A DNA stretch of 60,528 bases, filler included, from Sphacelaria rigidula (lineage: Eukaryota), in assembly GCA_964200075.2 (NCBI GenBank). It is 10 parts of 10 records of this genome, joined end to end, with 100 filler letters (N's around TTAATTAATTAA, not from the genome) between each part and the next. Parts side by side here need not be neighbours in the genome. Positions count along the whole stretch, not along the records: positions 12,127 to 18,089 come from CAXNAA020023170.1; 9 more parts are not named here. One strand, 5' to 3'. The notes under the pieces are model-generated. The model worked only from the letters and a program-made list of their open reading frames with translations. It searched no databases and was not told where the DNA came from. Both the position numbers and the translations under genes were made by a program. Numbering within the stretch: the stretch's first letter is position 1; each line of letters begins with the position of its first letter. Of this stretch, positions 5,328 through 48,083 are shown one piece after another.

Positions 5328-5581
5328 TGTGACGCCAGCAGGTTGCTAGTACTGTAGCGTCTAATGCTGTGGAGGGACTCCCCAGTTCCACTGGCCTCAG
5401 GTCTTAGTTGTCAGCCTTCACAACACCTTTTGTTATTCCCGGAGTGCCTGCCAGGCGGCTCCATAAACCACATCAGGGTAACACCCCTGTGTCCATGTCA
5501 TCATCCATATCCTCACTACAGATCCCAAGCCATTATCCAATCATCACCATATGCTCAACGTGGAGGGGTGATTTCGTCACA
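5328..5581 (-). mobile_element. 3' LTR of a Ty3/gypsy chromovirus
   Basis: TGTGACG...CGTCACA termini, homology to the LTRs at 14837 and 47478, and a purine-rich TGGGGG tract just upstream on the minus strand. Confidence 0.85.
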
Positions 5582-5660
5582 GCACCCCCAAGGCGCGTTG
5601 GACGAGAATCGAGCAACAAGCGTGACACTCAGAAAAATAACGCCAAAACTATTGAGCACG

Positions 5661-5963
5661 TCACAACTGAATCCCAAACTCACGCGTAATGCGAGCAGCA
5701 ATGGAACGAGTCACTCGCACCTTACACAACTTCTTCTTGCGAAATTCCGAAGCGGCCTCAAAAATATTTTGAAAAGGCTCCCACGTACGCTCCTCGTCTT
5801 CAAAAAACCCCCAGTCGACCAATACGATCAACGAACGACCCTCTGCCTCCGTCACGTGAACAATCCCAGCCATCTAAAATTGCCCCTGGTTCAAAGCGTG
5901 CTGAAACACATCCTTCAGATCTGCCGTAACATTAAGCTGCGAGTCCGCATAAAAACGCAGACG
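5661..5963 (-). pseudogene. C-terminus of gypsy pol: integrase tail and chromodomain (truncated by contig end)
   Basis: ORF contains LVDWGFFEDEERTWEPFQNIFE, matching the chromodomain pattern LVxWxGF...TWEP..N, and lies directly upstream of the 3' LTR. Confidence 0.8.
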
Positions 5964-7075: not shown

Positions 7076-7184
7076 GAGAAAAAATACTCGAAAAAAACTC
7101 AAGCAACTACTGTACAGGTAAAACAACTACGAATCCTGAAAACTTCTGATACTGACTACTGTAGACAAACTCAAGGCAATTTGG

Positions 7185-7619: not shown

Positions 7620-10600
7620 GAGCGGTTCTGTGTACCGAGTTCATGTACGATGGCGAAGTGGGTAATGCGATATAATAGTAGCGAGCAGTTCAAGTGTGTA
7701 GAAAACCAAAGCGTCGAGCAAATAGAGAGTCTTCTTTGCAGCAAGTTTGCGTGCGACTCCCCAAGTTGGACTTCGTACACTGCCATGTGCACACAAGGCA
7801 CCCTCTGGCGTTTGCTGCACACAGGAGATCAGTGACGAGCTACGGTGATGTCGGTACGGTACTGTTCGGGACTACAGTACTTATGCTCTGCTTCTGTGTG
7901 TCACTATCCAAGTACAACGCACGCAGTCGCGAGGACCATTGAGGATTCCTGTCTCGGACCAGATGTGCCGAGACTGGGCAACACAGGAAGTCAGAAACGA
8001 GTGAGCCACGTAATAGAGCATACCGATCAAAAACATACCGAATGGCCAGGGCCCGTCGGCCTCTGCCTGCTCCTTGATGTGCTATGCCCTTCACATACCT
8101 ACAGCGGTAAGGTAAACAGCAGGGAACTCAAGACCAAAACGCGCTTCCTGTGCTACCTAAGCTGCACAGCCAAAAGAGTGGGAAATCTATGAAACACATA
8201 GCAATACCAACTGCACAGTTTTATGAACCGACAGTAACTCACCACGTCTATTGCACGTCAATCAGGTAGCTCCCGCTTTCTCCTGCGTGCCACGCACAGC
8301 TTGCAGCGGAAGGCACTGATGCTTCAAGCCGCCTTCTGGCAACAGGCCCGAGCGAGTACCGCATATCCCCTAATCATCATCTACAAAATTGTTCTGAATT
8401 TCCGGAACACACGACACCCCATCAAGCTTGAGAGTTTGTGCGGTGAGGGTCAGAATGGATGATCCAGCAGCCATATGCGGGTGAGTACTGCTGATAAAGT
8501 CGATTACTTTAGTTTGGGGCCGTTACAGCGGCAAAAAATGAAGAAAGTCGTCTTGGAACAAATTGGCGGCTGATGAAAGTTCTTGCTTAAATTAGCACAC
8601 CGACCATTAGGTCACAACATGCCCTCGACCATGCTAGACTGAAACAGGCCTACAGTTACCTTGCAGTAGACTGCTTGAGGCTCGATTAATGGTGACGCTC
8701 TAGTCTATACTCTCAGGACCTTGAAACCCTACTCCATAGTATTTTTGGTCGCTGCGGCACATCATGCGCGTATTTTTGCATCTCGTCCGCTCGTTCTCCG
8801 CAAGCGTAGGGTTTTCTACTGCTACAGGTATTATTCCGCTCGCGAGGCTATCCGCTGCCCCCCTCGTCCAACGTCATGTTCTAAAATCCTCGCGTCTGCA
8901 AGTGACATGACCTCGTATATCTCCTGCGTTTTCCCTCTGCTACTCTACTGCGCCTTCTTCGTGTTTTGTTACTCTACTGGGCCGACGGGCGCAGAGCGGC
9001 CGTAGTGATCGGGGTGCCTCTTCTCATCTGGGCTTGGAACAACCGTGTACGGTACTGGTATTACGCGGCCTATCCCATTGCCTACCCCGGAGATGCACAC
9101 ACAAATCTCCTGACGCGAAGGTGCAGTGCAATTTTGTTAGGGCTGGGTACTGCCGCAGATTCAGCTAGTACCTTGGATCCGTGGCTGAGCGTCGTAGGAG
9201 GCGTGTTTTCACGTGATTTGGCTTTACTAGAGCAAAAAAGGTGCATGTTCGGCTTCACTTGCGACGCAATCAGATGGGTTTCGTTGAATAACGAGGCGTA
9301 ACCGTGGCATATACGTAAATAGGAAATCACTTGCAGTACTGGCTGCAATTTTTCCAGTACAAAGCCCCAGATTTGTTGCTCGGCCACTGTCCAATGGTAT
9401 AACCCGCCTGATGCTTTCACGGGGGCTCACAGCAAGGATTACGTGATAATGGCGCAAATGAACCTGACCATACGGTCGTCAGTAGTATTAATAGGAGGTA
9501 CCCCAACAACAATGCCCCACTCTGACACCTTCCCCCCTTAGAAGTCGAGGCCTGCTTCGTGAACGGACCCGGCAGTCCGAAATTCCAGTCGCAGGAAGGC
9601 TGTTTCTCAAAATTAACTGACTGGCGTGCCGTAACGTCGGGAGTACGGCGAGCGACGGAGAGTGAAACACACAAAACACCCCCCGTGGGTGGCTGCATAC
9701 TTTTCTAAGGCCCGTTCTTGACCAGGAGTCATTTGGAAACGCCAAACGTTCCATCGGCTTTTCAAATGCCACCGTGCTACCGGAGAATGTGGAAAAACAA
9801 CAAGTTCATGCTGCATGCTTTGGGCCCACATCCTACGAAATATCCTCCACACGGTGTCATGACCGCAGTCTCAGCGAACAGTATCACGACCACCCCCCCA
9901 AAACAGCAAAATGCAAGGTCATATTTTCAGTGCGATGCTGTTGTGTTGTGTACAGCATCAAGGCTGTGCGTTGGCCATATTGTTTGAAACAAGCAGCAGA
10001 GAGATATAATAATGGAGGCGCCCACTGTCCAAATTTGAAAATGAGAGCGAACATAGCGACTGCAAACAAGTCGTGCAAGTCGCCGGGTGAAAAATAATAA
10101 TTCGAACGTGCACAAATGGGGGCGTACTCATCTGTTGCTTGCCTTTGTGCCTTAGCCGTTTGACAACCGATCACGCATCCCTTTCGAGACGGGGCAAAAA
10201 TGGAAAGGGGGATAGGGAAGAACCTATTTCCACCGACAAAAATGGTTCCAACAACCTCAATTTCCTCAGAAAGTTACTGTACCGTGGAATCTAGGCTTCC
10301 GAAAGGCATCGTAAATCATGTGATGGCTTCAAGCCAAAAGCCTTTACAACGACACGGCTTTCAGTAGCATGGTCATTGTTGTTGTCGTGCAAATCAACGG
10401 TTGAAATTCTCGGCTCCATGGGGGGTGGGGGGGGGTTGCACGCCGTTACCAGCGACACTCCTGCCGTCGAAGCAACACATCTGGCCCGCGTGCTTTTTGC
10501 AAGCGATCTGGCGTGTACGTGTACACAATATGCTTACTTGGTCCACATTCCATAATTGGGGCATGCTCTTGCCCGATGTTCCTAGCTTACTTCATGATAC

Positions 10601-12454
10601 CTTCCTCCTTCGTCTCCCACCGCACATCCTCCGACCTGTGGTCCATCCCGGCGCAGAGGAAAGTGGGAAAACCAGACGAGTACGTTGCGTGGAGGCTGGA
10701 CATTCTTCCATGCACAGCATTCGCATGACCGTACCGAGGCAGCATGGGCAAAGGCCGGAAAGTCGCTGAGTCTTACCGGGGAGGCTGCGGGCAGGCAAAC
10801 GTGGGACATGGCTACGGAGAAAGAGCAAGCAGAGTCGCCGCCGGGGGAGGAAGATCTGTCGTTTAATCCTGCCCTCAACCCCAACGCAGGCGATAAGATT
10901 CTCCGTGCTCAGCAGGTGAGCAATGGGTTTTATCGATGCCCGTTTGAAGCGGAACAACGTACAGGTATGACTCCAAGTGCATAAGACATCGGTGGCTAGC
11001 CACGGAAAGGAAGCGGTAAATCCCTGTTTTTTGTCAAGAGGGCTTGCACAAACCGTTTTAGTCGTCTCGTAGTGTTGACGTGCGCATGAAATCTACCCGG
11101 CATTGCGGTTCCACAATAGCGGAAGAATTTTTGGGCCTGCAAGCGTAGCCAATCATAAACGAGTAGTAAGTAGAACCCCTTACGGTGCTTGGTGTCGCGG
11201 TTTGCATCGAAATGTTGCGCATCAGTGCTGTGTGGGCTTGTTGGATCGGTACGGCAGTGTCGAGCGATTCCTGTGATATACCCTCCAAGAATTCTCACAC
11301 GCTTTCCCTCTCAACGTATACATCTTGAAACGCCAACCCTTTCCTACGGAGCAACAAGTGTCATCTTCCATTGCTGCTGCTGCTGCTGCTTTTGCTGTCC
11401 CCATGCCTTGGTGTCGGTGTCTTGCTGGACGTTGACGTTTGACGTTGTGCGAAAGCTGAGAAAGTGGACAGGACCTCGCCCGGACGACAGCAAAGCGCCC
11501 ACCAATGCCCTGGAAGCGGCGAAAAAGGGCGCTGCCTTTTACCAGGCATGGCGTTTACTGCACTGTGCTGTGCTGTGTTAGTTTCATTTATCGCAGTATA
11601 GGTAACACCGTTCATTCGGCTACTGTCTGAGAAAAGAAGAACAGAGTTGTCAGGAACCTACATGTAGTGTCATTATGTATCCGGTTTGACTGAATATGGC
11701 GCTCATCTAGTACGTCGTTGTTGACTCCCTTTATAGTGTCCAAGCAGTCAATTTCGGTGGCGTACATGGGTGCAATTCACTATATCTCCCATGCATATGC
11801 AATGTGTCCTCACGCGTGGACGTTTATCGAATGATTTGCGCCAAAGATGAAGTCCGATGCAGCGTTCAGTGTCTAATTTCTCACGCCAGGATGGACGTGA
11901 CAAAATTGGCGCTTCAACTGCTGTGCTGATTGATTTGATTGGCTGACTGATTGACTAATGGATTGCTTGCGGGGGGGGGGGCGTACTCATTTGTTGCTTG
12001 CCTTAGTCATTTGACCATTGACCACGNNNNNNNNNNNNNNNNNNNNNNNNNNNNNNNNNNNNNNNNNNNNTTAATTAATTAANNNNNNNNNNNNNNNNNN
12101 NNNNNNNNNNNNNNNNNNNNNNNNNNAGCACTGTTTTGGGCTTGAGCCTCATCTCGAAGTTAAACCTCAATTCTCACAATTTGTTGTTACTGGATCGTAC
12201 CGAGTGAGTCATGCTGCGATAGGGGGGAGGTATTTTGGGCCGTTTTCTCCAACGAAATTTGACGTGGAATCGTCGTTAATAGCAGCAACGGTTGTTGACA
12301 CGCGCTTACTTCCGATAAATAACGCTCATTCATACTATTTGACACCGCTTTTACCCAAATACAAGTGCACCGCGAGTGTGTGATGCCGTCTGGAGCATGT
12401 ATGAGCCCATTATTTCGTGGAACCAAACGTCCCCCCCCCTATCGTAGCATTACT

Positions 12455-13504
12455 CTACCGCCGCGGCCTCGTCTTCACTTCGGACGCCCCAGGTTTTGGC
12501 TGAACACGCATGGGCTTTACGCGCGCAGGAGGATCACCCCGCAGCGCACGACGAAACGCGTTGACGCGGCAATACAATATGCCGCGCAGGCGCCCCGCTT
12601 CTGAGACGCTGAGGCCTTTCGCCACAGTCTCCGTCATGCTCTCCTCCAGCGCGAACTTCCGAGCGGACTCCTGTTCCGCCGGGTCCATGAACATATCTGG
12701 GCCGAGCTCTACTAAGCGTTCCACCGCCGCATCCCACTCCTCAGTCACCTGCCCCCCAGCCTCCTGAAAAGCATCCTTCGACAAGCTCATACGACGACTG
12801 CCCAAAAAGGCGGGCGTCTCCACATGCGGACCAGGCGGAGACATCCGCGTCTTGATGGGGTCCTTCAACCGCTCATACGGGTCGACTCCTAGATTCTGTA
12901 GCATCGGCAGCCCCACAAGAACAACGACATCCGACCCTGGCATAATCGCAAACGAGATCGGAGGCAACGGCGCCAGCCCCCAAGCAGTCTTGAACGCTAG
13001 CTGCAACGGAACAGTACGCTCCGTGACTGAAACATGCTGATCCGACGCGGTGACCGCCTGCCGCGCCCCGAGCGAAAACGGCATGCGCAGCGGCACACCC
13101 GGGAGTTGACGCTCCAGCATTTCAACCATCTGCACCGGTAGACTAGTGAAATGGGCGCCAGGATCCAACACAGACCGAACCACAATGGCTCCACGCTGCC
13201 GTTGATTCGTAAGGTATAACTCCGCCGGAATATATCTGTTGGCAAGCTCCACGGAAACTTCTTCCGCTGATCTATGCGCCGCTAATCCCACTTGACGCCA
13301 CGGCTGCGCAGGCGAAGACGCCCCGGCAGGTTCAAATGGCACCACCGGTGGGTACGCCCCCCAGCCAGCAAACCAAGAGTTTGGCGACCCTTCAACCAGC
13401 GCGTCAACAGGCGCCAGGCCTGGCGCTGCTGCCGGTGTCGCCGCCGGCGCCACCACCGGCGCCGGCGCCGTATTCGACACTGTATAAGTTGGGCTCACAT
13501 GCAC
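12455..13504 (-). pseudogene. Gypsy aspartic protease and pre-RT region
   Basis: VLDPGA (degenerate DSG/DTG), AIMPGSDVVVLVG and GDPPARVKPMRVQ are colinear with 43770-45071. Confidence 0.8.
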
Positions 13505-14524
13505 CGCCGGTTGCGGAGCAGGAGCACCTACGGCGGCGCCGGACCCAGAGCCAGCTCCATGCTGACGCCCCCTGCTGCTGCTGGTCCTGCTGCTGCTGGT
13601 CCTGCTGCTGAGGGCTCACCTGCGACCCTCTATCGCCGGAGGATCCGCCGCCGCCACCACGATTACCTCGTCTTTTGCCCTTGTGCTGACGATGCTGATG
13701 GCACGCGGCATGAGACTGCCCAGACTCTCCCCCGGAAGATGTTGGGTAATCGCGCGCGTAATGGCCGACCTGACCACAGCGGTGGCAAGTGATACTCGCG
13801 GCGCGACCGGCCGATTTCGAGCATGATTGCGCAAAGATTTCGGCGAAGAGGTGGACGACTGGCCGAACACCTCTATTTTCCGCCACTGCTTGGCCTCGGC
13901 CACGACGGTGCTCATCACCAGGTAAGGGTCGACCTTCCAGTCTGTTTGGTGCTTCAGCTTGATGAGCACGGCTTGCTTGAAATTTTCCGGTGCCAACCGC
14001 TCCACCAAAGCCTTGGTGATTACTGCTGCCGGGCCGGGAATGAACTCACCATCGGGGGAATGATATACTAGTTCCATGTTCGGATTTTTCGTCAAGTACT
14101 TCTCCACATTGGCCAAGATGGGCTCCACCCGCTCCAACATCGTTTCCCCCCGAGAATCCATGACGACAGCTTTCGCCACGGCCACGGACGCTTGGGTCAG
14201 ATCTACCTCGGCGCCCGCCGCATGCCCAGCATGCTTTGTGATCACCGCAACCAATTGCGGCGAGGTGATAGTGCTTTCATGATGTTCCAAACAAGCGAAC
14301 ACTCTCTGTACATGAGTTGGCACTTGTTGAGCCATTGTCACCACCTGATGCCGCACCGCACCTCCTGCATTAGCGTGCTCCGCACGCTTCTTGTATTCCA
14401 AATATCTCGTGTAAAAAGTGCGAAATGCACTCTCTGAGTACCTGTCCCCGTATTGGGGAGGTCGCAACTCTTTCCGCAAGACCACGGGTGTCACGGTGGA
14501 CGTACCTCGTGAGCCGGTAGCCAC
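13404..14524 (-). pseudogene. Gypsy gag with zinc knuckle (frameshifted)
   Basis: 302-aa ORF with an overlapping frame carrying CHRCGQVGHYARDY (last Cys mutated), followed by Gly/Gln-rich sequence; homologous to 46093-47179. Confidence 0.85.
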
Positions 14525-14836
14525 AGCTGTAGCTGTAACCGGCTACCTGCAAACTCTCATAGGCCAGCGGACTTTCGTGAATTGCACACTTCCTTGCCTC
14601 GTCGCCGCACCACACAGTGGTAGGAGCCTCCAAACTCCCGCTGCACGCAGCTTCAGCAAGTCTCCAGTCTGGATCAATCACACACAGGCCAGCCACCTTT
14701 GTGCAACCGCCTCAGCTGGAACCCTCTCCACACGTCCGTGGGTTATCAGGATTCCACAGCTACCCAACTCCTTCCGCCGAATTCCTTTCTAGCAGGTTTC
14801 TAGCACCAACACTGGCACTAGCACTAATATCGATAT

Positions 14837-15085
14837 TGTGACGCCAGCTAGTGGAAGCACTGCTGATTCACTGCTGTTGAGGGACTCCCCAGTCTTACTG
14901 GCCTCAGTTGCAGTTGTCAGCCTTTACAACATTCTCATTGTTCAGGAGTGCCCTCGTAGGCACAGCCTCCTAGACACGCTGGGGTATCAACCTAGTGTCC
15001 GCGGTCATTATCCAGATTATCACTACCAATGGTCATTATCCAGATCATCACTACCAACTCAATATAACGGCGTTATTTCGTCACA
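14837..15085 (-). repeat. 5' LTR, family A
   Basis: TGTGACG...CGTCACA termini; similar to 5328-5581. Confidence 0.85.
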
Positions 15086-16919
15086 ACCCTAAAAACTCGT
15101 CAGATATTTCAAAAAGGATTTCGATTTGTCGATTCATTTTCTTAGCGGGAGAGCTTTCGCAAGACATTTGAAACTCCATCGTCCCCACGATTTCATTTAC
15201 GAACACCCACGGCTTGTCGATGTGGAACGGAACGGATAAGACCTCGAAACACTCCGATATCAAATGGCTACAAGTCTACTCTGAGATGACGTTTTTCCCG
15301 TCATATTTTTTCGGTCACCGGAGAACACAGATGCTTCAGTTTTTACATCAACTGTTTGGTCTCAAAAGCCCAACAATCATTTTCTCAAACTGATTTTCGA
15401 CGTACAACGGTCTGTTTGATTTGTCAGCTGGTAGCTATCACTGCGGAAACCGAAACAGACGCAAAGAAAGGTGTATTATCACTCATTAGACAGTGGATCC
15501 TGGAAATGAGGTCGATCTCAAAAATGAGGTTCAAGTGGGATATCTTTTTTGCAGGGATGACGCGAAACAGTTACACAGAGCGAAACCATCTTTCCCCCCA
15601 AAACTCTGCAACGGAGAATCAGTTGTGGCTAGGTGCACCGGACGAGTGCGGTTGACACGCGTGTCGATGACGATATCACCAGAGAGAGAAGCAACGACAG
15701 AGAGGAAGCTCCTCGCCCGTGTCCTTTGTGTGTCCTCGCTCGGCGATTACCAATCGCTCGAGAGACTGGCATCATGGATGTTACCAGCATGTACCGAATT
15801 CATGTGCCGGTAGGCATGTTACTATGTTGCTGCGCACAGCCGCCTGAAGAACATCAAGCTGCGGAGAGATTTCGTCTCTTCTTGTCTGTGGAGCTCATCG
15901 AATTTCTCATATGATTAAAATTAACAAGCAACTTTCGATTATTGTCAAGGAGGAGGTTGATCCATATTATGTCATTTGCCAAGAAGCTATTATAGATCAC
16001 CCCTCCCCCCCCCATCCCCCCGTCCCCCACAAGCAAACAACACACAGCGACTGGCTCCGCGGATGACGCTTGACAACTATGTCGCGCCCCGCAACACGTA
16101 TGTGGCATGCCATGTTTTACTGGACTACTTGATGTAGGCATCAGGCTGGTATACATGATCGTCGCGGAGTGATGTTGGCTGCTGACAAGGACACCGCAGC
16201 TGTCACTGGACAGTCGTGTGTTTGAGCATCATCTTTCACGCGGATCGACGTAGCGTTTGCGTACCTAGAGCCTTGTTCGTTGCGAATGACACGTGGTGCA
16301 ATCCCCTGCTACGGCGCTTCGATCTGCGCTGAGGATTGCATGAGATGCTGAACTGCGGCTGGTCCATCATTAGATTAGCACTGCTACAGTGCTGTGCTGT
16401 ATTTGTTTTCCCGACCAGAAACTGCAGTGACATTCATTTGGCAGACGTGTTCCGGCCATGTCTCGTCAATTTCCTGTGACTCGAACGACTTCGTGCGGCG
16501 GAATTGATTCAGTTCGTTTTGCTGTGTTGGATCTGAGCGCATCTGTACGGTGTGCATCGAACAGGCTAAACGAAATTCGTGAAGCGGTACTTGTTCACTT
16601 GTTTTCAGCCGACGTCAAAGTTCATGTGCGTACGAGTATCGTATATAGTGTTTCGCATAGCACGCAGGCGCTCCCTGCACTCTGCATACAGGACGATGAG
16701 GAGAAGATTTGAATCAAGTGTAGTTTTGCACTGCCTCTACTGTCCATGAGCTTGTTCGCAATTCGGTTGGCCACCCCAACATGCAACTCCGTCCGTGGAC
16801 CCCATCACGAAATTGGATACTGACGTTTTCGCCGACAAACAAAAACCGTCATGCCAAGATGGGTGCGGTGTCGATTCTCTTGTCACAGCAGGGTATGTAT
16901 CCCTGTGGTCAGCTCTTAA

Positions 16920-17018: not shown

Positions 17019-17020
17019 TT

Positions 17021-17465
17021 AACACGGAACCTTACAAATTGGGGATGGATCCTTTTGGAGGGATGAAAAACCCGGAGAATTAAAATCTTCGTATCCACAC
17101 CAAATCTCCGATATATTGCTCCAATTCTTGACCTACTGATATCTATTGACAACTGCTACACGACATACAATTTTGGATCTCGATCACCAAAATGTTGGGG
17201 TCTTGGATGAAAAACCATTTTTGGGGAATTCTGGGTGCCCGAACGGACGCCAAAATGGTTCTGAAATTGGTTTTTCACCTAGGACCCCAACATTTCGGTG
17301 ATCGAGATTCAAATTTCTATGGCATATAGCAGTTGTGAATGGCAATCAGTAGGTGAAGAAGTGGAACAATATTTCGAAGAGTTGGTGTGAATACGAAGAT
17401 TTTAGTTCTCCGGGTTTCTCATCCCCAATGAAAAGATCCATCCCCAATTTGTAAGATCTCGTGTT
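17021..17465. mobile_element. Foldback element with ~190-bp arms, AACACG...CGTGTT ends, 4-bp TSD TCTT
   Basis: Long imperfect inverted arms; homologues at 22990-23446 and 55375-55746. The TCTT duplication is restored once the adjacent piggyBac MITE is removed. Confidence 0.85.
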
Positions 17466-17978
17466 TCTTGATCTGTGTTGCAGGGTTGAGCTAGTAGCTA
17501 CAAATGACCATGTGGGTTTTGCATAGGTCTGTAGAACGCTGGTACCTGGTATGATCGTCTGCAACAGGAGAAGCTATGTGTCGCTTCGTTTATTACGCTG
17601 CTCGTTTCGCTCGAAACAGTCGAGCTTTTGTTTACGACCCTGCCCGTCGCGCGCATTTGATTATAAAATGGACTTGAAGCTACCGGAGAACATGAATACC
17701 CCCACCCCCCTCCCCCGCCCGTCGTTGAACACGGTACAAACAGTCTGTACGTGCTTTTGTATAGTACAATGTTTGATACATTAGTCAACTGTTGAGAGCA
17801 TCGTCTCATGCGCACCGCTTCTTCCCCTCTGCTGTCTTCATTCATGAACTAGATGGACCTCACCGACGAAGACATCATCAAGCCTTGACAAGGCCCCGTT
17901 CGACCGCAGGATGAGCACCTGATCACCTACTCAACCATGCGGCTACCCACTACCTACACACAGTACGGATGTACGTAC

Positions 17979-18068: not shown

Positions 18069-21000
18069 AAAGTTAGTCGTGGGGGTTCANNNNNNNNNNN
18101 NNNNNNNNNNNNNNNNNNNNNNNNNNNNNNNNNTTAATTAATTAANNNNNNNNNNNNNNNNNNNNNNNNNNNNNNNNNNNNNNNNNNNNTCTTTTGTTTT
18201 TCTCTCGTTTGTTTTTTTCCGCCCGCGCTCGTGTTCCCCCTCCCTCCCCTCCCCTGTTAGTATTTGTTCTGTCCTTCAATCGTTTTTTTTTTCATAGTTC
18301 GGGCTCTCGTAGTTCGCGTTGGGTCGGATTTGGTTTCATCAAAGTTTCTTGTCTCTAAAGAAGAGTACACATTCACGTCTTTCCAGCTTTAATCCGGCTG
18401 CACGAAAGAGAAATACTCTTTTCAGGATGACTCGGTTGGTGGAAATCACAAATTTTATCGTCGCTGGAAATCAACAAATTATCCACCCTCCCCCAATAAA
18501 ACTTGGCTCTCGGTCGAAAGCATTTTCCTATCCGGCAGTGTTGACCGGAGGTCCGACGCTTACTGGCGGTTGCATGACTCGCAATGTATGTTGTATGTTG
18601 AGTCGCGACAGCCGATGGTCTTGAGCGTCGCAGTGTGAATTATCTGAGGACCTCGATGACGATGGATATTACTACTGTAGTTGAAGGGATCACGCCATCT
18701 ACAATGTCGTGCATCCGTTTTGGTGTTGTATGTGTCTGGTTCTCCATCGTTCGGCTGCCGCTACTACTTACTGTTGCTGTTGCTGTTTGTTTCTTCGTAG
18801 TTCGATGGTTGTCGCGTAAAAAAGACCTTATGCTCCTTCCCTTGATGATTGATGTTTTTTTTCTGTTATTCTTAAACTGTTCGCTTTGCGTTGTTGTGTT
18901 GGGGTTATCGACTACGCGCTTACTGATTGATTGATCTGATTTTTTTTTTTTTAATGGACACGAGGTGAGTATGTTTGTTGTAGAGATATGTGTATGGATT
19001 GGGTGATGGGTGCGACGAGAGGAAATAATGTTGTGATTTTTTTTGTCCCCGCGTGTCGTTCCATCTCTTCGATCGGTGGCGTGTACTAGTGGTGTTTGTT
19101 TTTTCATTTGTTTTCGGCGTTCATAAATTTAGCTTTCTGGATGTTGTTTGCAGCACATCTACTTGGCTAGAGGCCAACTTGAGGAAGTAGCTATTGCAGT
19201 AAGAAAAAGTGGAAGGGAACTTTGCTGTGTACCCCTCCCCACTTGGCTGCTATAGTACTAGGAAATTTTCCAGATATCTTTTTCGTCGCTTTGCTGTTGC
19301 GTCACAAGAAACAACCACAAACCTTTGAATATAATGGTGGTCGAAGACAATGTAGTGGCCTGATCAATGATTATTCATATTTCAAGCAATTCAGTGTGCT
19401 TGGGAGAGGCGAGAATCATTGCGCATGCATGGTCTGTGGAATCAGTACCGTACTGCTGTAGCTTTTGTAGCGTAGGAAGATCAACATGTTGGCGATACGG
19501 ATGAACGTTGGATGTAGTGTGAAGGGGGAGAGAAGTGGTGGAGTTGACCTCACTCAAGAACCTGGTCGTTGGTGGGTCGGAGGAGTATTATCGATGGTGA
19601 ATGAAATGGACATAGACGTTAGTCGTGAATATTAATGGTTGAACAAATGATGATGCGGTTTAGTGTGGATGGGGGAAAGGGGGTATGTAAGAAAGGCGGT
19701 GATGATGTATGCGGGATGAATGATGATGGAAGCACAAAAGTCGATACAAAACTAAGATCCAAAAATTGATTCGATTAGTTGTCGTACTATATATTGATCC
19801 CCGAGGGATCCAGCCGTGGTCACACGATGGACGTATCCACAAGACGAGACAAAATTAAAACACAATGAGGTCGGTTTGGACATTTTGCTATATGATATCT
19901 CGGCTAATTTCATATATTTTTTAGTTGTTCTTTCGCGTCAGATTCGAGGCGCCTCATTCGAGACCGCCAATTCCATTTCAGCTAAATTTTTAATAACCAG
20001 CAGCAGGTCAAAATTACCAACCCAACTTTGAAGCTCCGGTGAAAGATCTTCCGATAACTTCCCCTATTTAGACCTATTCAGATTGCTTTTGATCGCAGAT
20101 TCGGTCGACACACGGGACTGTCATTTCCCGTTTTTTTTAAAAACCAAATTGACCATCTCACGTCCCAAGCACGTGGGGTGAAATCACGAAATTACTACCT
20201 CACTCAGGCCGCTCCTTATAGCAGACAAAGAATATCAAAATCTAGAAAAGTGCCTTTTTGGAGCTTCTACGTTTTACGCCCTAAGAAAGAGCTTGGTGGA
20301 TTTTGACGTGAGGAATGCCTTGCGGTACTCGTTGAAACTGCTCCATCACGCCTGAGCGTTTTCCCGGTCGTGGCAGTTTTTTTCTTGCCCAAACTTACGT
20401 TTTCTCCCGGAGACTTTTCATTTTCTCGGAGACGGGTCCAAACAAGGTTTTCGTGAGAATGAGAGTAGAGCGTGGATTACGAGTGGTTTTTGTCATTCGC
20501 TTTAACTCAGGGATATCAACGACTTCGGTGTGAGGCTAATACAAAAATTATATCTTGCCTCGTGGAGGGTAATTTCGGAACTGACACGACTTATTCATCA
20601 ATTGACCGCTTCTCACTCCCCATCTCACGAAAACACTGTTTCCAGTCGACAAAAATTAGCGGACTTTCCCCCAGCTTTTGAAACCCGTTTTGATTCAATG
20701 GAAAAAGATGAAAAACTGAATTGTTGTTCAATTGTACAAGGATTGTAAAATTCGGTGTTGACGGTTTTTGTGCAGGCAGCCAGTAGAACAAAGAAAGCTT
20801 TCTCCGGGCTTGTTTGACGTACTACCGACTAACTAACCTGCTCCAAAGCTACTCTCAGGCACGATCTTCGCGGTGGCGCTTGACAGTGGGGGTCATAGAT
20901 GTAACGGCAAGTGGTTGATCATATAGAACACCCTTGCCCCTCGTGAAACCATATCTCGCCTCTGCTTAGTTAGGATGACTCTCCTCGCACGGGAATTTGT

Positions 21001-23446: not shown

Positions 23447-23620
23447 TCCAGGGGAGTTCCCGTTGATCGACAATAATTACACACTTTAAAGAATTCTAAT
23501 AATTTTTAACATTTGATCACATGTTTTCTTCTCAATAAACGAGAGAAGATACCATTATTTACCTCCGCGTAGCAGGTATGTATCACGATAAACTATTTAT
23601 CTTGCGGGTACAACGCCTTG

Positions 23621-42441: not shown

Positions 42442-45071
42442 GCGCCACACCACGGTGACCAGCCGACCGCATGTGAGCGCACACCATCAAGCGAGTTTGT
42501 AGAGCCCTATCATCCGACAGAATCCACAACACATCATTACTGCCGACACGCACACGAAATACACCATCGTCAGCCAAAGCAGTTTGAACGAAAGTCGTAG
42601 GAAAAGAATAAACAGCGTCGCCGACTGTTTTGCGCTGCGCGGTACGAATGACATCTAACGAGGGCAGAGAATCATCGGCATCACACGGGCTGTACACGGC
42701 AACAGAACGAACAGACACGGTAGGAACCTTCACCCAGCGGGACAACAAATCTCCCCAACAATTGCGCTCTCCAGGAATGTGTTCAACGGCATACCGATAT
42801 TGGCCTAGTACTCCTCTCCAATTTTTAAGTCGTTATGCCATGGCCTTCGTCACCGATGTGACACACTCCTCGGGGTTACAAATGTATTTAAGATTGCGAT
42901 GATCGGTGAAAATGCGAACACCACCCCAAAGCAAGTACTCTAGCCTTCGAAATGTATTGACTATCGCGAAACCTTCCTTGGCCACTGTCGCCCACCGTAA
43001 CTGTGAACCCTTAAAATTACCATTCAGAAAAGCCAACGGTTCGTGTGACATGTTTTTGAGCGCAACGCCACTTCTAAACTCTGCGACAGGCACTTGCGTA
43101 AAAAAACTACCCCAGTGAAAATCCGAAGCATCTGGAAACATGAGAACAACGCACCCTGGACAAGGATGATACAGCGGCAACGCTTGCGCCACCAAATCTT
43201 GCGCAGCATGCCATGCCCGGACAGTATCCTCCGTCCAAGCGTCCTCCGGAATGGTACGATTACGCGCCACCCACTCGGTCAGACGCGAAGCCCCGATCAT
43301 GAGCTGTTCCAGAAATACTCGAAGCGGAGCAACTACTTCCGCCATGCGCGGAAGCAAAGCCCGCGACCAATTCACCGCCTGCAGAAACTGCATCAGCTCC
43401 CTAGCTTTTTGAGGACGTCGCATATTGCTCAACCTCGAATACGGGCGGGATCATGCGAAACAGTACCCTTGGAATACACCTTACCACACCAAACCACTTC
43501 GCGGGCGAAAAAAGTACACTTATGCGCAGCGACGAATAGACCAACACTCTCGAAGCGGCCGAGAATTTCGTCAAGCAAAGCTAACAGTGCTTCTTCGGTT
43601 TCAGCAAAAATAGAAAACGTCACCCACCCACACTTTACAATCTAGACCTCGCAAAATGTCAGTCAGCCGTGGAATTCAATACCCCCTGCGGGACACGAGT
43701 AGGCGTAAACAAACTGTCCGGCGTGAGGATCGTGAAGATTTCCTGAGCCTCCGGCGCCAGAGGCATCTGTCAATACCCCTGTAGAAGGTCCAACTTGCCG
43801 AAGCATTGGGCTCCTAGCAACTCCCGCATGTCTTCTTGGCTAGGCATCACCCCCGGAGACTGTTCCACTTGCGCGTTCACCGCCTGATAGCCGCTGACCA
43901 AACGGAATGTGTCCCTTTTCGGCACCGCCATCGCCGGACTCACCCACACAGCCTGGATGTTCTTCACCACTAAACCAAACGCCACCAAAGCTGCGATGGA
44001 TGAGGCAAGCCACCCGGTCTTCACTGGATCGTACCGTCTGGGCTTGGCCTTCACCGCATTCGCCTGGGGCTTGATCTGCACCCTCATAAGCTCTACGCGC
44101 GCTGGCGAATCACAACGCAGCGCACGGCGTAATGTATCTACGCGACGAGCCAAAATATCGCGCAGACAATGTGAGCCATCGGCGCTCAGGCCCTTCAGCT
44201 CGGCTTATCGCACACTATCCTCAAGCGTACATTTTCTTGAACCTCTCTCCTTTGCGGGGTCCATGAACATGTCCGGCCCCCGATCGACTAAGCGCTCCAC
44301 CGCTTCATCAGCAGGAGCCTCCTCCTCATTGGCGCTCTGGAATGACCGTACGGATACAATCACACGCCTTGCAGCAAGGTAAGTGGGGTTTTCCACGCCG
44401 GTTTGCACCGGCACAGCACGCGGACGTAACTTCTCCAACGCCAGCGAATACAGATCAATTCCGAGCTCCTTCATTGTCGCCATCCCAAATAGAACCACGT
44501 TATCCCTACCGGGCATGACAGCGAACGTAATGGGCTACAACTGCAAAGCCCCCCACGGCGTACGCACGCTGACAGTAATTGGCACCGTTTTGTGTGTAAC
44601 CGTCACGGGAGCACCCGTGGCGGTCGGTGCCGTTCGCGGTCCGTTTTCGAACGGAATCTGAAGCTGAGCACCGCCAAACTGCGAAGACATCTGTTCTAGC
44701 AACCCCACACCGATCGACGTGAGCGCTGACCCAGAATCCAGAATAACGCGGGTCATGAACGAACCTACAGAACCAGGCAAGGATAAATCTGCGCGTAAGC
44801 ATTCAGTCTTGCGATCGACAGGTACCACGCCTGCCGAAGAACCCTGTTCTGTCCCAAAAGTCACTTGACGCCAGGGCTGCCCTCCAGCACTTGGCATCGG
44901 TAGCTGTGAGTCGTCGGTCCAACCAGACCAAGTCGCTGAATATGCAGACGGCGCTGTCACAGCCGTCGCAGCAGTAGGGGATGCACCAGACATGGATCCT
45001 GCCTGGCCGAGAGGTTGCGAGCTATACGCTCCAGCACTCCCCACCAAGGTATTTGCATTTCCCACGTACAC
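42442..45071 (-). pseudogene. Gypsy pol: protease, RT, RNase H, integrase H2C2 start
   Basis: ILDSGSA; WVSPAMAVPK and KLDLLQGY; KVWVGDV (mutated WVDD); FPDASDFHWG, KEGFAI and FTDHRNL; CAHMRSAGHRG. Stops and frameshifts are present. Confidence 0.93.
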
Positions 45072-45116
45072 TATCCGCCCCGCTACGGACGAACCATAAG
45101 ATCCAGAGTCACCACC

Positions 45117-46087
45117 TCATGACGTCGCGGAAGAAACAGCAGCGGAGGAATTACCATCTTCCGCCGATTGCTTGCTACCGCGGCCGCCGCGCCCGCGTCC
45201 CTGATTGGCACGGCCCCGTCTGCCGTGACGACCGCCCCTAGATCCTGATAAATCTCGTGCATTGCCCTGTGCCGCGCCTTGAGCGCAAGGCTTGTGGCAG
45301 TCCTTGATCACATGTCCGGTGTTGCCGCATTTGTGACACGCGCAAGTGGACGACGCTCGCGAAGACGGCTGTTGTTTCTGTTGCTGTTGGTGCTTGCGGC
45401 GCATACCACCTGCACTTGTTGCAAAGTCGCGCCGGCCATGTGCTTCAATGAATTTCCACTGGTCGGCCGCCTCAAATATGTTTTTGAACACCACCGTCGG
45501 GGTTTTTTCTAGCCGTCGACATACGTTAGTACACTTCTAACATGCGCCTTAAATTCCGGGGGCGAAATCCCGTCCACCAAAGCTATGGAAACCGACTCGG
45601 CCGGGCCTGGCAACCAACTCCTGTCCTCCGCCCGGTACATGGCTTGCACCATCAGGTTCTCTGCAAAAAACCGTTCCATATCTGAACTGACCATCACAGC
45701 ACGATCCCTGACAGATTTTCCCCCGTTTTGCTTCATCGTAAGTACCCTACGCAGGTCTGCTGCAGCCCGCGCAGCGTTATGCTTTCCACCAGTTGTAATA
45801 TACCCGGCATGCTGCTTCACAGCATCAAGCAATTCATCGGGGGTCACAGCCCGACCGCCCTTGTACATGTCTTCGAAGCAGCGGTGAATGCAGACAGGAA
45901 TGAGTTGCCCTATGCTTACTTTCTCATGCCGAATAATTCCTTGTCCATTAACGAGACTCAGACGCTGTATATTTTCAAGATATGCTGCGAACAAAACCCG
46001 TGATGCCTCCTCTGTCCATACTTCACCATACTTTGGCGGCTGTAGTGGCTCACCTAACACCAGCGGCGCTACCGCTGCTTGAGCCAT
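45117..46087 (-). pseudogene. Gypsy gag, family B
   Basis: Starts MAQAAVAPLVLGEPLQPPKYG; the second fragment carries the knuckle CHKCGNTGHVIKDC. Confidence 0.85.
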
Positions 46088-46092
46088 GTCGT

Positions 46093-47179
46093 CTATGCTT
46101 CAAACACTTCACGGAGAGACACTTGAGTGGTCGGTCCCACCTGCACTGCCCGTTGCGGAGCAGAAGCCCCTGCGGCTGAGCCGGACCCAGAACCGGACCC
46201 CTGCTGACGCCGCTGCCCCTGCTGCTGCTGCTGCTGCTGCTGCTGGGAACTCGACTGCACACCTCCACCGCTGGAGGATCTGCCTCCACCACCACCCCGA
46301 TTATCTTCTCCTCCTTTGTGATTGCGAGAGCGCGCGGCACTTGTCTGCCCAGACTCCCCCTTGGAAGGCGTTGGGCACTTGCGTGCGTAGTGGCCTACCT
46401 GGCCACACTGAAAGCAAGTGATCTTGGCGGCGGCACTGCCTGCGGATTTTGATCCGCGGTTACGCGAGCTCGAAGACTGCGGCGGCGAAGTGGATGATTT
46501 CCCGAATACTTCAATCTTCCGCCATGCCTGAGCCTCAGCCACCACGGTATCCATAACTAAGTATGGGTCTGACTTCCGATTGGTTTTCGTGCTGTAATTT
46601 CACAAGCATTGCCTGTTTGAATTCCGCCAGTGCCAGACCCTCCACCATCGCTTTCGTGATCACCGCAGCGGGCCCTGGACGGAATTTCTCATCGGAGGAG
46701 CGGTAGACCATCTCGACGTTGGGATTTTCGGGAAAATATGTCTCCAATTTTCCCATGGTTGGCGCCACCCTCTCACGCATGGTCTTCCCCTTGTGGTACA
46801 TGGCGACAGCCTTCGCCACGGCCGCGGACGCCTGGGTTAGCTCTACCTCAGCGCCCGCCGCATGCTCTGCATGCTTCTTAATTGCTGCAGCCAATTACAG
46901 CGGGATTATTGTGTTCTTCTCGTGGAATCTTCTCGCAAAAACACGTTGGAGGGGGGTATCCATGAGTTGCGCCATGGGTACCACCTGATGTCTTACCGCA
47001 CCCCCCGCATTCGCATGCTCCACCCGCTTCTTGCATTCCACGTATTTCGTATAAAACGAACGAGCAGCACACTCAGAATACAATTTCCCGTAACTGGGAG
47101 GCCGCAACTCTTCTCTCAGAACAACTGGGGTTACGGTCGTCTCCGCTGGCTCTTCGGTCGGTACTTCAATAGTCGACAT
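46093..47179 (-). pseudogene. Gypsy gag, family A (nested)
   Basis: TVTPVVLREELRPPSYG matches the gag at 14524; knuckle CFQCGQVGHYARKC and a poly-Q tract. Confidence 0.85.
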
Positions 47180-47477
47180 TTCCGAGCGGATCTAATCGAA
47201 GGCTTCTGAACCTTCTTGAATTCCACAGTTCACACCTGTCTTCGTCGCCGCACCACACAGCCGTGGGGTCCTATAAACTCCCGCTGCATGCAGCTCCAGC
47301 AAGTCTCCTGTCTGGATCAATCACGGGTCAGCCGTCTTTGCAGCTACCCCAGCTTGAACCCTCCTCACGTGCCCGTGAAGCAGTATGTCCGAAGCTGTCC
47401 AGACTTCTCTCTACTGAAACATTTCCAGCAGTCACTAACGATAGCACTACTAGCACGGCTAGCACTAATATCGATAT

Positions 47478-47680
47478 TGTGACCTGTAATGCTGTTGAGG
47501 GACGCCCCAGTTCCACTGGCCTCAGGTTTCAGTTGTTCGCCTTCACAACACCTGTTATTATCCTGGAGTGCCACCGAGGCACAATACCCTTCATAAACCA
47601 CATCAGGGTATCACCCCTGTATCCATGTCATCATCCATATCATCACAATATACTCAACGTGACGGCGTGATTTCGTCATA
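47478..47680 (-). repeat. 5' LTR, family A
   Basis: TGTGAC...TTTCGTCATA termini; clear similarity to 5328-5581. Confidence 0.82.
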
Positions 47681-47825
47681 GTCCTTCAGCTCACGGAGCG
47701 TCCCCCACTGCTGTGCGCTTCAAGCTGGTTTCCTCCTGTCTGCGGGCTAAACTGGCTCTCAGCTGCCGTCAACTTCTCCTCAGCCAAAACTCCTCTAACA
47801 GAGTGCCGGAGTAATATCTAGATAT

Positions 47826-48083
47826 TATAGCCTCTGCCACACGATCTGGACAAGAGGACTATTCACGAGGGACTCCTCCAGTAGCACTGGCCTCGTGCTC
47901 GACAAGTCCTTCCTTCTCACTTGTTATTATCCCGGAGTGATCCTCAATAGACCACATCAAGAGCCAGACAGCAAGGGGCCACACAGATGAGGGTCATCAA
48001 TCCAGGATCCCCTGTCCCCTGCCACTGCTCCAACCATGCATGCGATTATATCGGAACCTACGGCTTGGTATCATTGGGCTACA
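47826..48083 (-). repeat. Probable 5' LTR, family B
   Basis: T(A)TAGCC...GGCTACA termini, 258 bp; shares GAGGGACTCC..CCAGTnnnACTGGCCTC and TTGTTATT..CCCGGAGTG with the family A LTRs. Confidence 0.65.

What the first reader, a model, noticed from the sequence alone, without database searches (positions are those of the whole stretch)
14800..14860. Gypsy chromoviruses with a self-complementary palindrome instead of a tRNA primer-binding site
Seen: none of the three 5' LTRs is followed by the TGG that pairs with a tRNA CCA end. Both family A copies have the perfect palindrome AATATCGATATT spanning the LTR end (14826-14837, 47467-47478). The diverged family B LTR has TAATATCTAGATATTA (47812-47827), a different centre and length with symmetry kept. 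In family A the sense strand can extend the stem (CAC-AATAT-CG-ATATT-A-GTG), and U5 CACTAGC can pair with leader GCTAGTG. Known: Tf1/sushi-type chromoviruses self-prime by pairing the PBS with the first bases of the mRNA, but I see no complement of this PBS elsewhere in the LTR. Inference: these elements may use a distinct priming route, such as hairpin cleavage or pairing of the two packaged genomes through the palindrome.
Basis: partly seen in the sequence, partly recalled or inferred. Interest (0 to 1): 0.75.

Follow-up and report, generated by a model that had tools for sequence, protein, structure and literature searches.

The report
Palindromic primer site in algal retrotransposons
A very abundant family of gypsy-type retrotransposons, whose nearest named relatives are in brown algae and oomycetes, carries a short self-complementary sequence exactly where the tRNA primer site should be, pointing to an unusual and untested way of starting reverse transcription that has one published parallel in fungal copia elements.

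Summary
The elements lie on the minus strand. Their LTRs (TGTGACG...CGTCACA, 203-258 nt) are followed at once by ATATCGATATT in families A and C, or ATATCTAGATATT in family B. With the last A of the LTR these make perfect 12- and 14-nt palindromes. None of 4 junctions has a TGG. A fourth junction, from an unrelated public contig, has the same 12-mer. The 20 nt around the junction are identical in three copies whose LTRs are only 47-64% alike. Thousands of sequencing contigs pile up on this block.

No LTR holds a better-than-chance complement of the site, so ordinary Tf1 self-priming is not supported. Host tRNAs could not be searched.

The LTR border fixes where the minus-strand primer must end, so the palindrome is the primer-binding site. 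Family B differs by a central TA that keeps the symmetry. This favours nucleic-acid self-pairing over a fixed host RNA or a dimeric protein site.

My best reading (0.4) is priming in trans: two genomic RNAs pair through the palindrome and one is cut.

This is not unprecedented. Fungal GalEa copia elements have a post-LTR palindrome that also includes the final A of the LTR (PMC5445492), mechanism unknown. I rate it a new variant of a known kind, interest 0.6.

The parts
14837..15085 (-). 5' LTR of copy A1 (249 nt, TGTGACG...CGTCACA)
   Evidence: Inverted termini read. Contigs diverge at 14837 and 15085 (table 7). Aligns with the other LTRs.
14826..14837 (-). 12-nt perfect palindrome AATATCGATATT. 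Base 14837 is the last LTR base; 14826-14836 is the 11-nt putative primer-binding site.
   Evidence: It lies inside the deepest, least variable block of the read pile-up.
14543..14825 (-). Leader of copy A1. Positions about +18 to +50 can pair with the last ~30 nt of U5.
   Evidence: duplex -23.9 kcal/mol; 14% of shuffles as good.
12455..14542 (-). gag (CCHC knuckle), protease and start of RT of copy A1, cut by the end of the piece
   Evidence: ORFs; zf-CCHC; tblastn with P0001 residues 11-681.
47478..47680 (-). 5' LTR of copy A2 (203 nt, TATGACG...GGTCACA)
47467..47478 (-). Same 12-nt palindrome in copy A2. 47478 is the last LTR base.
46372..47466 (-). Leader and partial gag of copy A2, a truncated copy nested in the leader of the family B element
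   Evidence: tblastn with P0001 residues 14-264; leader alignment.
47826..48083 (-). 5' LTR of the family B element (258 nt, TGTAGCC...GGCTATA)
   Evidence: Inverted termini match at 6 of 7 positions.
47813..47826 (-). 14-nt perfect palindrome AATATCTAGATATT. 47826 is the last LTR base. It extends to 16 nt (47812-47827). It equals the family A site with TA inserted at its centre.
42443..46078 (-). gag-PR-RT-RNase H-integrase (N-terminal part) of the family B element, with frame breaks, cut by the end of the piece
   Evidence: tblastn with P0001 residues 13-1221, 37-57% identity; RT_RNaseH domains.
5328..5581 (-). 3' LTR (254 nt) of a further family A-like copy. It ends CGTCACA and is followed by unrelated flank.
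5582..5590 (-). Polypurine tract (TGGGGGTGC on the sense strand) just before the 3' LTR
   Evidence: The same motif precedes the 3' LTR on L005 and appears in the loose-end consensus beyond 15085.
5664..5963 (-). 3' end of pol with a chromodomain-like C-terminus
   Evidence: tblastn with P0001 residues 1562-1661, 77% identity. Pfam Chromo hits P0001 at E 0.0013, below the curated cut-off.

Best explanation
The palindrome is the minus-strand primer-binding site of a stramenopile-type Ty3/gypsy lineage that has given up tRNA priming.

Shown:
- The LTR ends at the A that opens the palindrome.
- No TGG follows.
- No complement of the site lies in the LTR.
- The site is the best-conserved block of the LTR-leader region across diverged subfamilies.
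- The one variant form keeps perfect symmetry.

Follows from the standard reverse-transcription scheme: the U5 border marks where the primer's 3' end sits, so the primer must pair with this sequence.

Inferred mechanism:
- The site is held in a loop closed by a U5-leader helix.
- Two genomic RNAs pair through it, giving 12 bp in families A and C and 14 bp in B.
- The element's RNase H, or another nuclease, cuts one strand one nucleotide before the 3' end of the duplex.
- The cut strand now pairs by 11 (or 13) nt with the partner's site. It primes copying of the partner's final LTR A and then of U5-R.

This is Tf1-like self-priming done in trans with the site itself. It would explain why the palindrome includes exactly the last LTR base. 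It would also explain why changes become mirrored: the plus strand recopies the site from the primer.

Confidence in this specific route is 0.4. Confidence that it is a functional, non-tRNA, self-complementary primer site of some kind is about 0.75.
For: - LTR borders are fixed by a 3' LTR plus flank, by an LTR pair of 96% identity on L005, and by contigs that diverge at 14837 and 15085.
- 4 of 4 junctions are palindromic from the last LTR base and lack TGG.
- GTCACA|ATATCGATATTAGT is identical in 3 copies whose LTRs are 47-64% and leaders 45-57% identical.
- Contigs laid: 3580 (X1), 3189 (X3) and 3484 (X4). The bin 14818-14854 is among the deepest (440,070 in X1). Depth is only 68,216 at 14849 and 33,515 at 14814, so a block of about 30 nt centred on the palindrome is shared far more widely than its flanks. 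No variant between 14815 and 14848 is among the 40 rows shown.
- Family B, whose LTR is about 40% identical to the others, differs by a central TA that keeps the symmetry.
- No Tf1-type partner lies in any LTR.
- Predicted homodimer energies are -12.3 kcal/mol (A, C) and -14.0 (B). The isolated palindromes have no predicted hairpin.
- Each copy has its own U5-leader helix, starting 1-3 nt before the LTR end and resuming at +18 to +21.
- The Tf1 precedent, an 11-nt RNA duplex cut by RNase H between bases 11 and 12, is taken from passages of PMC7175516.
- The family looks active: an intact 1661-aa gag-pol relative exists.
Against: - There is no direct evidence of pairing, cleavage or the identity of the cDNA 5' end.
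- The symmetry argument rests on a single evolutionary event. A random 2-nt central insertion keeps symmetry in 4 of 16 cases.
- Host tRNAs and small RNAs were not available. There are 0 tRNA genes in the window and in L005, so a host primer is not excluded.
- The duplex is AU-rich and weak.
- The primer would be about 100 nt long with no obvious stop for plus-strand strong-stop synthesis.
- In the predicted A2 homodimer, 0 of 38 intermolecular pairs use the palindrome. They do in the other 3 of 4 copies, but that is nearly true by construction.
- The U5-leader helix beats shuffles clearly in only 2 of 4 copies (0.14, 0.20, 0.03, 0.023).
- RNAalifold found no consensus helix on the 4-sequence alignment.
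- 220 variant rows of the read pile-up were not shown, so invariance of the palindrome is not proven.
- The best DNA runs may be the sample the window came from.
Confidence: 0.4

Rival explanations
1. A host RNA is the primer. This could be an internal part or half of a tRNA, a tRNA fragment, or another abundant small RNA. The site is complementary to it and its palindromy is secondary.
For: - Half-tRNA primers are established for some copia lineages: 1/2 tRNA-Met and 1/2 tRNA-Ile (passages of PMC6317226).
- No host RNA set could be searched here (0 tRNA genes).
- Conservation of the site fits any fixed primer.
Against: - Family B carries a 2-nt insertion in the middle of the site. This would bulge any primer shared with families A and C, yet it keeps self-complementarity.
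- Sequence beyond +13 differs among A, C and B, so pairing could not exceed about 13 nt.
- Nothing tRNA-like was found in the leader complement at E up to 10. That test cannot see a 12-nt match.
Confidence: 0.25
2. The palindrome is mainly a dimerisation and packaging signal, a kissing or extended-duplex site like those in retroviral leaders. Priming then uses some other, unidentified 3' end at the same place.
For: - It is self-complementary and predicted mostly unpaired in monomers of A1 and C (P unpaired 0.79 and 0.71).
- It is enclosed by a U5-leader helix.
- The GalEa authors raise the same comparison with dimer initiation sites (passages of PMC5445492).
Against: - It occupies the very bases where the primer must end, and no separate primer site exists beside it.
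- This reading therefore leaves priming unexplained rather than replacing the best explanation.
- In A2 and B the palindrome is predicted less accessible (P unpaired 0.41 and 0.34).
Confidence: 0.2
3. Ordinary Tf1/sushi-type self-priming: the first bases of the element's own transcript fold back onto the site.
For: - There is no tRNA site.
- The element is gypsy-type with a chromodomain-like C-terminus.
- A U5-leader helix is reminiscent of the U5-IR requirement named in the reference list of PMC7175516.
Against: - None of 4 LTRs holds a better-than-chance complement of the first 14 nt after the LTR.
- The region where the possible-RNA run X6 rises (about 14928) and the conserved TATA-like box place the likely transcript start in sequence unrelated to the site.
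Confidence: 0.05
4. The palindrome is a DNA-level site for a dimeric protein (promoter-proximal or chromatin factor), or a chance feature carried along by descent.
For: Palindromic 12-mers are common in the window: 42, about 20 of them non-trivial. Three of the four junctions share descent.
Against: - A change of half-site spacing from 0 to 2 nt (A versus B) is awkward for one dimeric protein but neutral for base pairing.
- Conservation far exceeds that of the flanks.
- The position is tied to the LTR border in all 4 junctions.
- The same layout occurs in unrelated fungal copia elements.
Confidence: 0.05

Closest known systems
[quoted passage not shown] 2017, PMC5445492; section 10 and discussion passages read)
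   Same: - No tRNA-type site.
- The 9 nt directly after the 5' LTR are palindromic only when the final A of the LTR is included.
- The site is conserved across families.
- No Tf1-type complement was found, and the mechanism is unknown.
- LTRs are of similar size (average 235 bp there, 203-258 nt here).
   Different: - GalEa is copia, in Pezizomycotina. Here the element is gypsy-type, with brown-alga and oomycete relatives.
- The sequences are unrelated: CTGATCAGT or CTAATTAGT there, ATATCGATATT here.
- GalEa has a second conserved 9-mer 12-41 nt downstream that pairs with the first. No such partner exists here (fraction of shuffles as good 0.2-1.0 in 4 of 4 copies).
Tf1/Tf2 self-priming (Levin 1995/1996 as summarised in PMC7175516; passages read)
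   Same: - Gypsy-type element without a tRNA site.
- The site is 11 nt long.
- The proposed cut one nucleotide from the end of an RNA-RNA duplex mirrors the Tf1 cut between bases 11 and 12.
   Different: In Tf1 the partner of the site is the 5' end of the same transcript, so a copy of the complement lies in the LTR. Here no such complement exists, and the only complement of the site is the site itself.
Chromoviruses reported with no recognisable primer site, e.g. SM-Tcn1 of Selaginella (PMC2864245, passages read). Tcn2-5 of Cryptococcus are said possibly to use novel priming (PMC7175516, passage).
   Same: Gypsy/chromovirus elements for which neither tRNA priming nor Tf1-type self-priming could be shown.
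   Different: Those reports describe a conserved T-rich leader or give no motif. No palindrome tied to the LTR border is described in the passages I read.
Half-tRNA-primed copia lineages (Osser, Bryco, Bianca; PMC6317226, passages read)
   Same: The primer site lacks the TGG of a tRNA 3' end.
   Different: Those sites match an internal tRNA stretch. Here no tRNA match could be tested, and the symmetric family B variant argues against one fixed primer.

Membership tests
Ty3/gypsy LTR retrotransposon (chromovirus) | Domain order gag-PR-RT-RNase H-integrase | tested here: met
   In the intact relative P0001 the order is RVT_1, RT_RNaseH, Integrase_H2C2, rve. Window copies align to it collinearly on the minus strand. 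The best solved-structure hit is Ty3 Gag-Pol, E 2.3e-43.
Ty3/gypsy LTR retrotransposon (chromovirus) | Chromodomain at the C-terminus of integrase | tested here: inconclusive
   Pfam Chromo on P0001 residues 1606-1637 scores E 0.0013 and 19 bits, below the 25.1-bit cut-off. Window 5664-5963 aligns to this C-terminus at 77% identity.
Ty3/gypsy LTR retrotransposon (chromovirus) | LTRs with TG...CA inverted termini and a polypurine tract before the 3' LTR | tested here: met
   Termini TGTGACG...CGTCACA. PPT at 5582-5590 and on L005.
tRNA-primed LTR retroelement | Site complementary to a tRNA 3' end (starts TGG) within a few nt of the 5' LTR | tested here: not met
   0 of 4 junctions (A1, A2, B, L005) have TGG within the first 30 nt after the LTR.
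tRNA-primed LTR retroelement | Site complementary to an internal part or half of a host tRNA | not testable with these tools
   No host genome is held. There are 0 tRNA genes in the window and L005 and no Rfam match.
Tf1/sushi-type self-priming elements | [quoted passage not shown] | tested here: not met
   The best LTR-site duplexes (-5.5 to -7.7 kcal/mol) are no better than 200 shuffled LTRs (fractions 0.21, 0.29, 0.46, 0.76).
Tf1/sushi-type self-priming elements | U5-IR-like RNA structure around the site | tested here: inconclusive
   A U5-leader helix is present in 4 of 4 copies but beats shuffles clearly in only 2. No alignment consensus was found.
Tf1/sushi-type self-priming elements | Phylogenetic placement in the Tf1/sushi clade | not tested
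   No reference sequences were at hand. The nearest named relatives are Ectocarpus (64%) and Aphanomyces and Phytophthora (37-40%) proteins.
GalEa-type Conserved Hairpin Site | The sequence directly after the 5' LTR is palindromic when the final A of the LTR is included | tested here: met
   4 of 4 junctions: 12 nt in A1, A2 and L005, 14 nt in B.
GalEa-type Conserved Hairpin Site | A second conserved inverse-complementary 9-mer 12-41 nt downstream (CHSeq2) | tested here: not met
   The best downstream partners (-2.8 to -6.8 kcal/mol) are no better than shuffles in 4 of 4 copies.
GalEa-type Conserved Hairpin Site | Ty1/copia element of the GalEa clade | tested here: not met
   The domain order is gypsy-type, with integrase after RT.

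The most novel reading that the evidence does not exclude
LTR retroelements have a third general way to start minus-strand synthesis, besides host tRNA and Tf1-type fold-back. The primer site is a palindrome that pairs with the same site on the co-packaged second genome. A nick in one strand supplies the 3' OH, so dimerisation and priming are one event. The site is then recopied from its partner each cycle, which keeps it symmetric. Under this reading the same solution arose independently in stramenopile gypsy elements (here) and in fungal GalEa copia elements.
Probability: 0.3. Interest if true: 0.85.

Novelty: new variant of a known kind. Interest (0 to 1): 0.6.

Why it matters
How reverse transcription starts is a defining step of every LTR retroelement, and only two routes have been demonstrated: host tRNA and Tf1 fold-back. 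A palindromic site tied to the LTR border was noted once, in fungal copia elements, and left unexplained.

Finding the same layout in an unrelated superfamily and kingdom makes it a recurring design rather than a curiosity. The family here has thousands of contigs and intact relatives. It also offers a symmetric natural variant, and a second system in which the mechanism can be tested.

There is a practical point too. Annotation pipelines that require a tRNA-type site will mis-score or miss these abundant elements.

Tried and rejected
**More family members**
- Protein-guided scans with P0001 found nothing in metagenome contigs, genome contigs or viral contigs. A 10-protein alignment in viral contigs also found nothing.
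- A U5 DNA pattern that does not include the palindrome found 0 loci in metagenome contigs and 0 in viral contigs. In genome contigs it found one contig, which was used.
- That contig's genome holds no further copy.
- Searching the protein collection with a spurious antisense ORF that spans the junction, to sample other copies, gave no hit.
- No host genome is held.
- Earlier notes of this scan returned nothing in 5 look-ups.

**RNA evidence**
- No RNA holder is listed on record.
- One run guessed to be RNA (X6) was laid. Its depth is 6,166-7,490 over 14818-14928, against 16-177 over 14929-15076 and 0-156 over 14707-14817. Its ratio to DNA run X1 varies about 100-fold along the stretch.
- This would fit a transcript start near 14928 and abundant R-U5-site RNA. 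However, the run's nature is a guess, contigs cannot show RNA ends, and low-depth variable flanks may simply drop out. I treat it as a hint only.

**Structure**
- RNAalifold on 4 sequences gave no consensus helix.
- Single-sequence minimum-energy folds differ between copies.

**Rfam:** nothing relevant at E up to 10 around the site or at gathering thresholds on the window and L005.

**Target-site duplication on L005:** no clean 5-bp duplication (TTAAC versus GAACA; 3 of 4 bases if 4 bp).

**Literature**
- Searches for palindromic primer sites, 'Conserved Hairpin Site' (2 papers), chromovirus + algae, brown alga + LTR retrotransposon + primer binding site (2 unrelated papers) and novel priming found no description of this gypsy-type case in the held library.
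- The original Tf1 papers (PMC1369541, PMC1563812) are not held.
- Supplementary files of PMC5445492 and PMC6317226, which list per-element primer sites, were not opened and may bear on how common such sites are.

Full report
**Layout of the window.** The window is not one stretch of genome. N runs recur every 6063 bases, so it is ten pieces of about 5963 nt joined by N44-TTAATTAATTAA-N44 linkers. Nothing can be inferred across a linker. No whole genome is held for it.

**Orientation and element type.**
- The long open frames near the finding are on the minus strand.
- They include gag with a CCHC knuckle, and protease plus the start of RT in 12455-14542.
- An intact 1661-aa relative from the protein collection, P0001, has RVT_1, RT_RNaseH, Integrase_H2C2 and rve in gypsy order. 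It also has a weak Chromo match (E 0.0013, below cut-off).
- Its best solved-structure match is Ty3 Gag-Pol.
- tblastn with P0001 maps four element parts:
  - copy A1 in piece 3 (14506->12458);
  - a family B element in piece 8 (46078->42443; 37% identity in gag, 55-57% in pol);
  - a truncated family A copy (A2; 47137->46372) nested in B's leader;
  - a pol 3' end in piece 1 (5963->5664).
- The nearest named relatives are an Ectocarpus protein (64%) and Aphanomyces and Phytophthora proteins (37-40%). One relative is annotated in a bacterial MAG.
- The runs that hold the sequence are labelled 'organism A' or 'algae metagenome'.

**LTR borders.**
- On the sense (minus) strand the LTR of A1 runs 15085->14837, TGTGACG...CGTCACA.
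- Piece 1 holds a 3' LTR (5581->5328). It is preceded by a polypurine tract and followed by unrelated sequence directly after CGTCACA.
- A U5 pattern that avoids the palindrome matches the three family A LTRs in the window and nothing else.
- The same pattern found one public contig, inside a bacterial MAG. That contig carries a complete, internally deleted element with LTRs 96% identical.
  - Its 5' LTR ends CGTCACA and is followed by ATATCGATATTAGT.
  - Its 3' LTR ends CGTCACA and is followed by unrelated flank.
- Sequencing contigs were laid on 14300-15400 at 80% likeness: 3580, 3189, 3484 and 68 contigs from four runs.
  - Many diverge into heterogeneous sequence exactly at 14837 (44 and 39 contigs in X1 and X3).
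  - Many also diverge at 15085 (100, 86 and 98 contigs), where the consensus is the PPT region.
- The last LTR base is therefore the A at 14837, 47478, 47826 and L005:8883.

**The observation.**
- With that A, the next 11 nt (ATATCGATATT) form the perfect 12-mer AATATCGATATT in A1, A2 and L005.
- In family B the next 13 nt form AATATCTAGATATT, a perfect 14-mer. It extends to 16 nt because the penultimate LTR base is T.
- None of 4 junctions has TGG within 30 nt.
- A 12-nt palindrome as such is unremarkable. The window has 42, about 20 of them non-trivial, against about 15 expected.
- What is remarkable is conservation. GTCACA|ATATCGATATTAGT is identical in three copies whose LTRs are 47-64% and whose leaders are 45-57% identical. 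The last 40 nt of U5 are as little as 18-21% alignable for A2.
- In the read pile-up the bin 14818-14854 has a summed depth of 440,070 (X1). Depth is 68,216 at 14849 and 33,515 at 14814, so a block of roughly 30 nt around the palindrome is shared by far more copies than either flank.
- No variant between 14815 and 14848 is among the 40 variant rows shown. A further 220 rows were not shown, so invariance is not proven.
- 24 contigs with a different U5 subtype, like that of piece 1, run through the palindrome up to 14848 before diverging (table 7).

**What the site must be.** In the standard scheme of LTR-element reverse transcription (established knowledge), minus-strand synthesis starts at the primer's 3' end. 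That position defines the U5 border, give or take the few bases trimmed by integrase. A primer binding further downstream would place the intervening bases in U5 and hence in every 3' LTR. The 3' LTRs in piece 1 and on L005 lack them. The palindrome is therefore the primer-binding site, whatever the primer is.

**Known routes tested.**
- tRNA 3' end: not met, 0 of 4 junctions.
- Tf1-type fold-back. [quoted passage not shown] For each of the 4 copies, the best duplex between the first 14 nt after the LTR and the whole LTR is no better than with 200 shuffled LTRs (fractions 0.21, 0.29, 0.46, 0.76).
- GalEa-type second motif: no downstream partner beats shuffles in any of 4 copies.
- Host tRNA halves or other RNAs: not testable. 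There are no tRNA genes in the window or L005 and no Rfam matches.

**Why self-complementarity looks like the selected property.**
- Families A/C and B have LTRs only about 40% identical, yet both keep the arms ATATC/GATAT and the flanking A...T.
- B has TA inserted at the centre (CG becomes CTAG). Perfect symmetry is preserved and still begins at the last LTR base.
- Such a change would bulge a shared host primer. It would also alter half-site spacing for a dimeric protein. For self-pairing it is neutral or better (-12.3 versus -14.0 kcal/mol predicted).
- This is one event, and 4 of 16 random dinucleotides would do the same, so the argument is suggestive rather than conclusive.
- An isolated hairpin is not predicted for either palindrome. 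In context only B forms a small local hairpin. Intermolecular pairing is therefore the feature common to both.

**Context structure.**
- Each copy has its own helix between the last ~30 nt of U5 and leader positions about +18 to +50.
- The helix starts 1-3 nt before the LTR end and leaves the palindrome in a loop of about 20 nt.
- Energies are -20.5 to -28.4 kcal/mol. The fraction of shuffles as good is 0.14, 0.20, 0.03 and 0.023.
- The helix sequences differ between copies.
- An automatic alignment gave no consensus structure.
- The palindrome is predicted mostly unpaired in A1 and C monomers (0.79 and 0.71) and less so in A2 and B (0.41 and 0.34).
- Predicted homodimers use palindrome-palindrome pairing in 3 of 4 copies. 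That is close to true by construction.

**Proposed mechanism (inference).**
- Two genomic RNAs pair through the looped palindromes.
- One strand is cut one nucleotide before the 3' end of the duplex.
- Its new 3' end is paired by 11 nt (13 in B) with the partner's site and copies the partner's final LTR A, then U5-R.
- This explains why the palindrome includes exactly the last LTR base: that base is the mirror of the nucleotide removed by the cut.
- It matches the 11-nt duplex and the 11/12 cut of Tf1.
- It predicts that the plus strand recopies the site from the primer. A change on one side would then be transferred to the mirror position. A one-base insertion at the centre combined with its mirror image would give exactly a CG-to-CTAG change.
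- Weak points:
  - the duplex is weak and AU-rich;
  - the primer is long, with no obvious stop for plus-strand strong-stop synthesis;
  - there is no experimental datum.

**Comparison with what is known.**
- The closest precedent is the Conserved Hairpin Site of fungal GalEa copia elements. These have no tRNA site. [quoted passage not shown] No Tf1-type complement was found and the mechanism is unknown (PMC5445492; section 10 read in full, discussion passages).
- That system differs in superfamily, host kingdom and sequence. It also has a second complementary 9-mer, which is absent here.
- A bivalve TRIM paper cites it without resolving the mechanism.
- Chromoviruses with no identifiable primer site are on record (SM-Tcn1, PMC2864245 passages). 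Cryptococcus Tcn2-5 are said to have possibly novel priming.
- My searches of the held library found no description of a palindromic primer site in gypsy-type or stramenopile elements. Subscription papers and the supplements of the survey papers were not seen.

**Verdict.** The mechanism is unproven. It is a new variant of a known but unexplained kind.

Noticed in passing
window 5964-6063, 12027-12126, 18090-18189 and so on, every 6063 bases: The window is ten pieces of about 5963 nt joined by N44-TTAATTAATTAA-N44 linkers, so neighbouring pieces are not adjacent in the genome.
   Followed up: yes
window 46372-47680 within 42443-48083: Copy A2 (LTR, site, leader, gag residues 14-264) is a truncated, same-orientation insertion about 125 nt into the leader of the family B element. 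B's gag resumes near 46078.
   Followed up: partly
table 5c, run X4, joint 14989 -> 14826: One contig at about single-copy depth (16.1) reads LTR end, then ATATCGATAT, then the start of another LTR in the same orientation, with no internal region or PPT. The inverted LTR termini make this a 22-nt perfect palindrome. It could be a nested insertion into the site, or a circle-junction-like product that kept the site.
   Followed up: no
L005 (contig of a bacterial MAG) 4982-9128: A eukaryotic retroelement sits on a contig filed under a bacterial MAG, probably contamination from an algal host. The copy lacks P0001 residues about 736-1569 but keeps an 892-aa open frame without stops. Its LTRs are 96% identical, and it has no clean target-site duplication.
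   Followed up: partly
window 14818-14928 versus 14929-15085, run X6: In a run guessed to be RNA, depth is 6,166-7,490 over the presumed R-U5-site block and 16-177 over the presumed U3. A conserved TATA-like box (ATAATAAC / TAATAAAG in the LTR alignment) lies about 25-30 nt upstream of where the depth rises. This hints at the transcript start only.
   Followed up: partly
window 14793-15090 (+), 47173-47670 (+), 5358-6011 (+): The antisense strand of the LTR is open in the same frame in three copies, and the palindrome reads N-I-D-I there. No homologue was found in the protein collection, so the open frame is probably due to composition.
   Followed up: partly
window 17019-17466, 22989-23448, 55373-55746; 7307-7619, 32963-33242, 53002-53220; 58011-58509: Other repeat families occur in the window, one matching in both orientations, plus a ~250-nt tandem pair at 58011-58509. 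A minus-independent ORF at 58764-59600 (+) carries cysteine/histidine spacing like a gag knuckle but has no Pfam hit.
   Followed up: no
window 14879-14905, 47497-47523, 5372-5398, and L005: The U5/R core GAGGCCAGT-N3-ACTGGGG-N-GTCCCTC is the other strongly conserved LTR block. It contains a near-palindrome (GGGAGTCCC). Its function is unknown.
   Followed up: no
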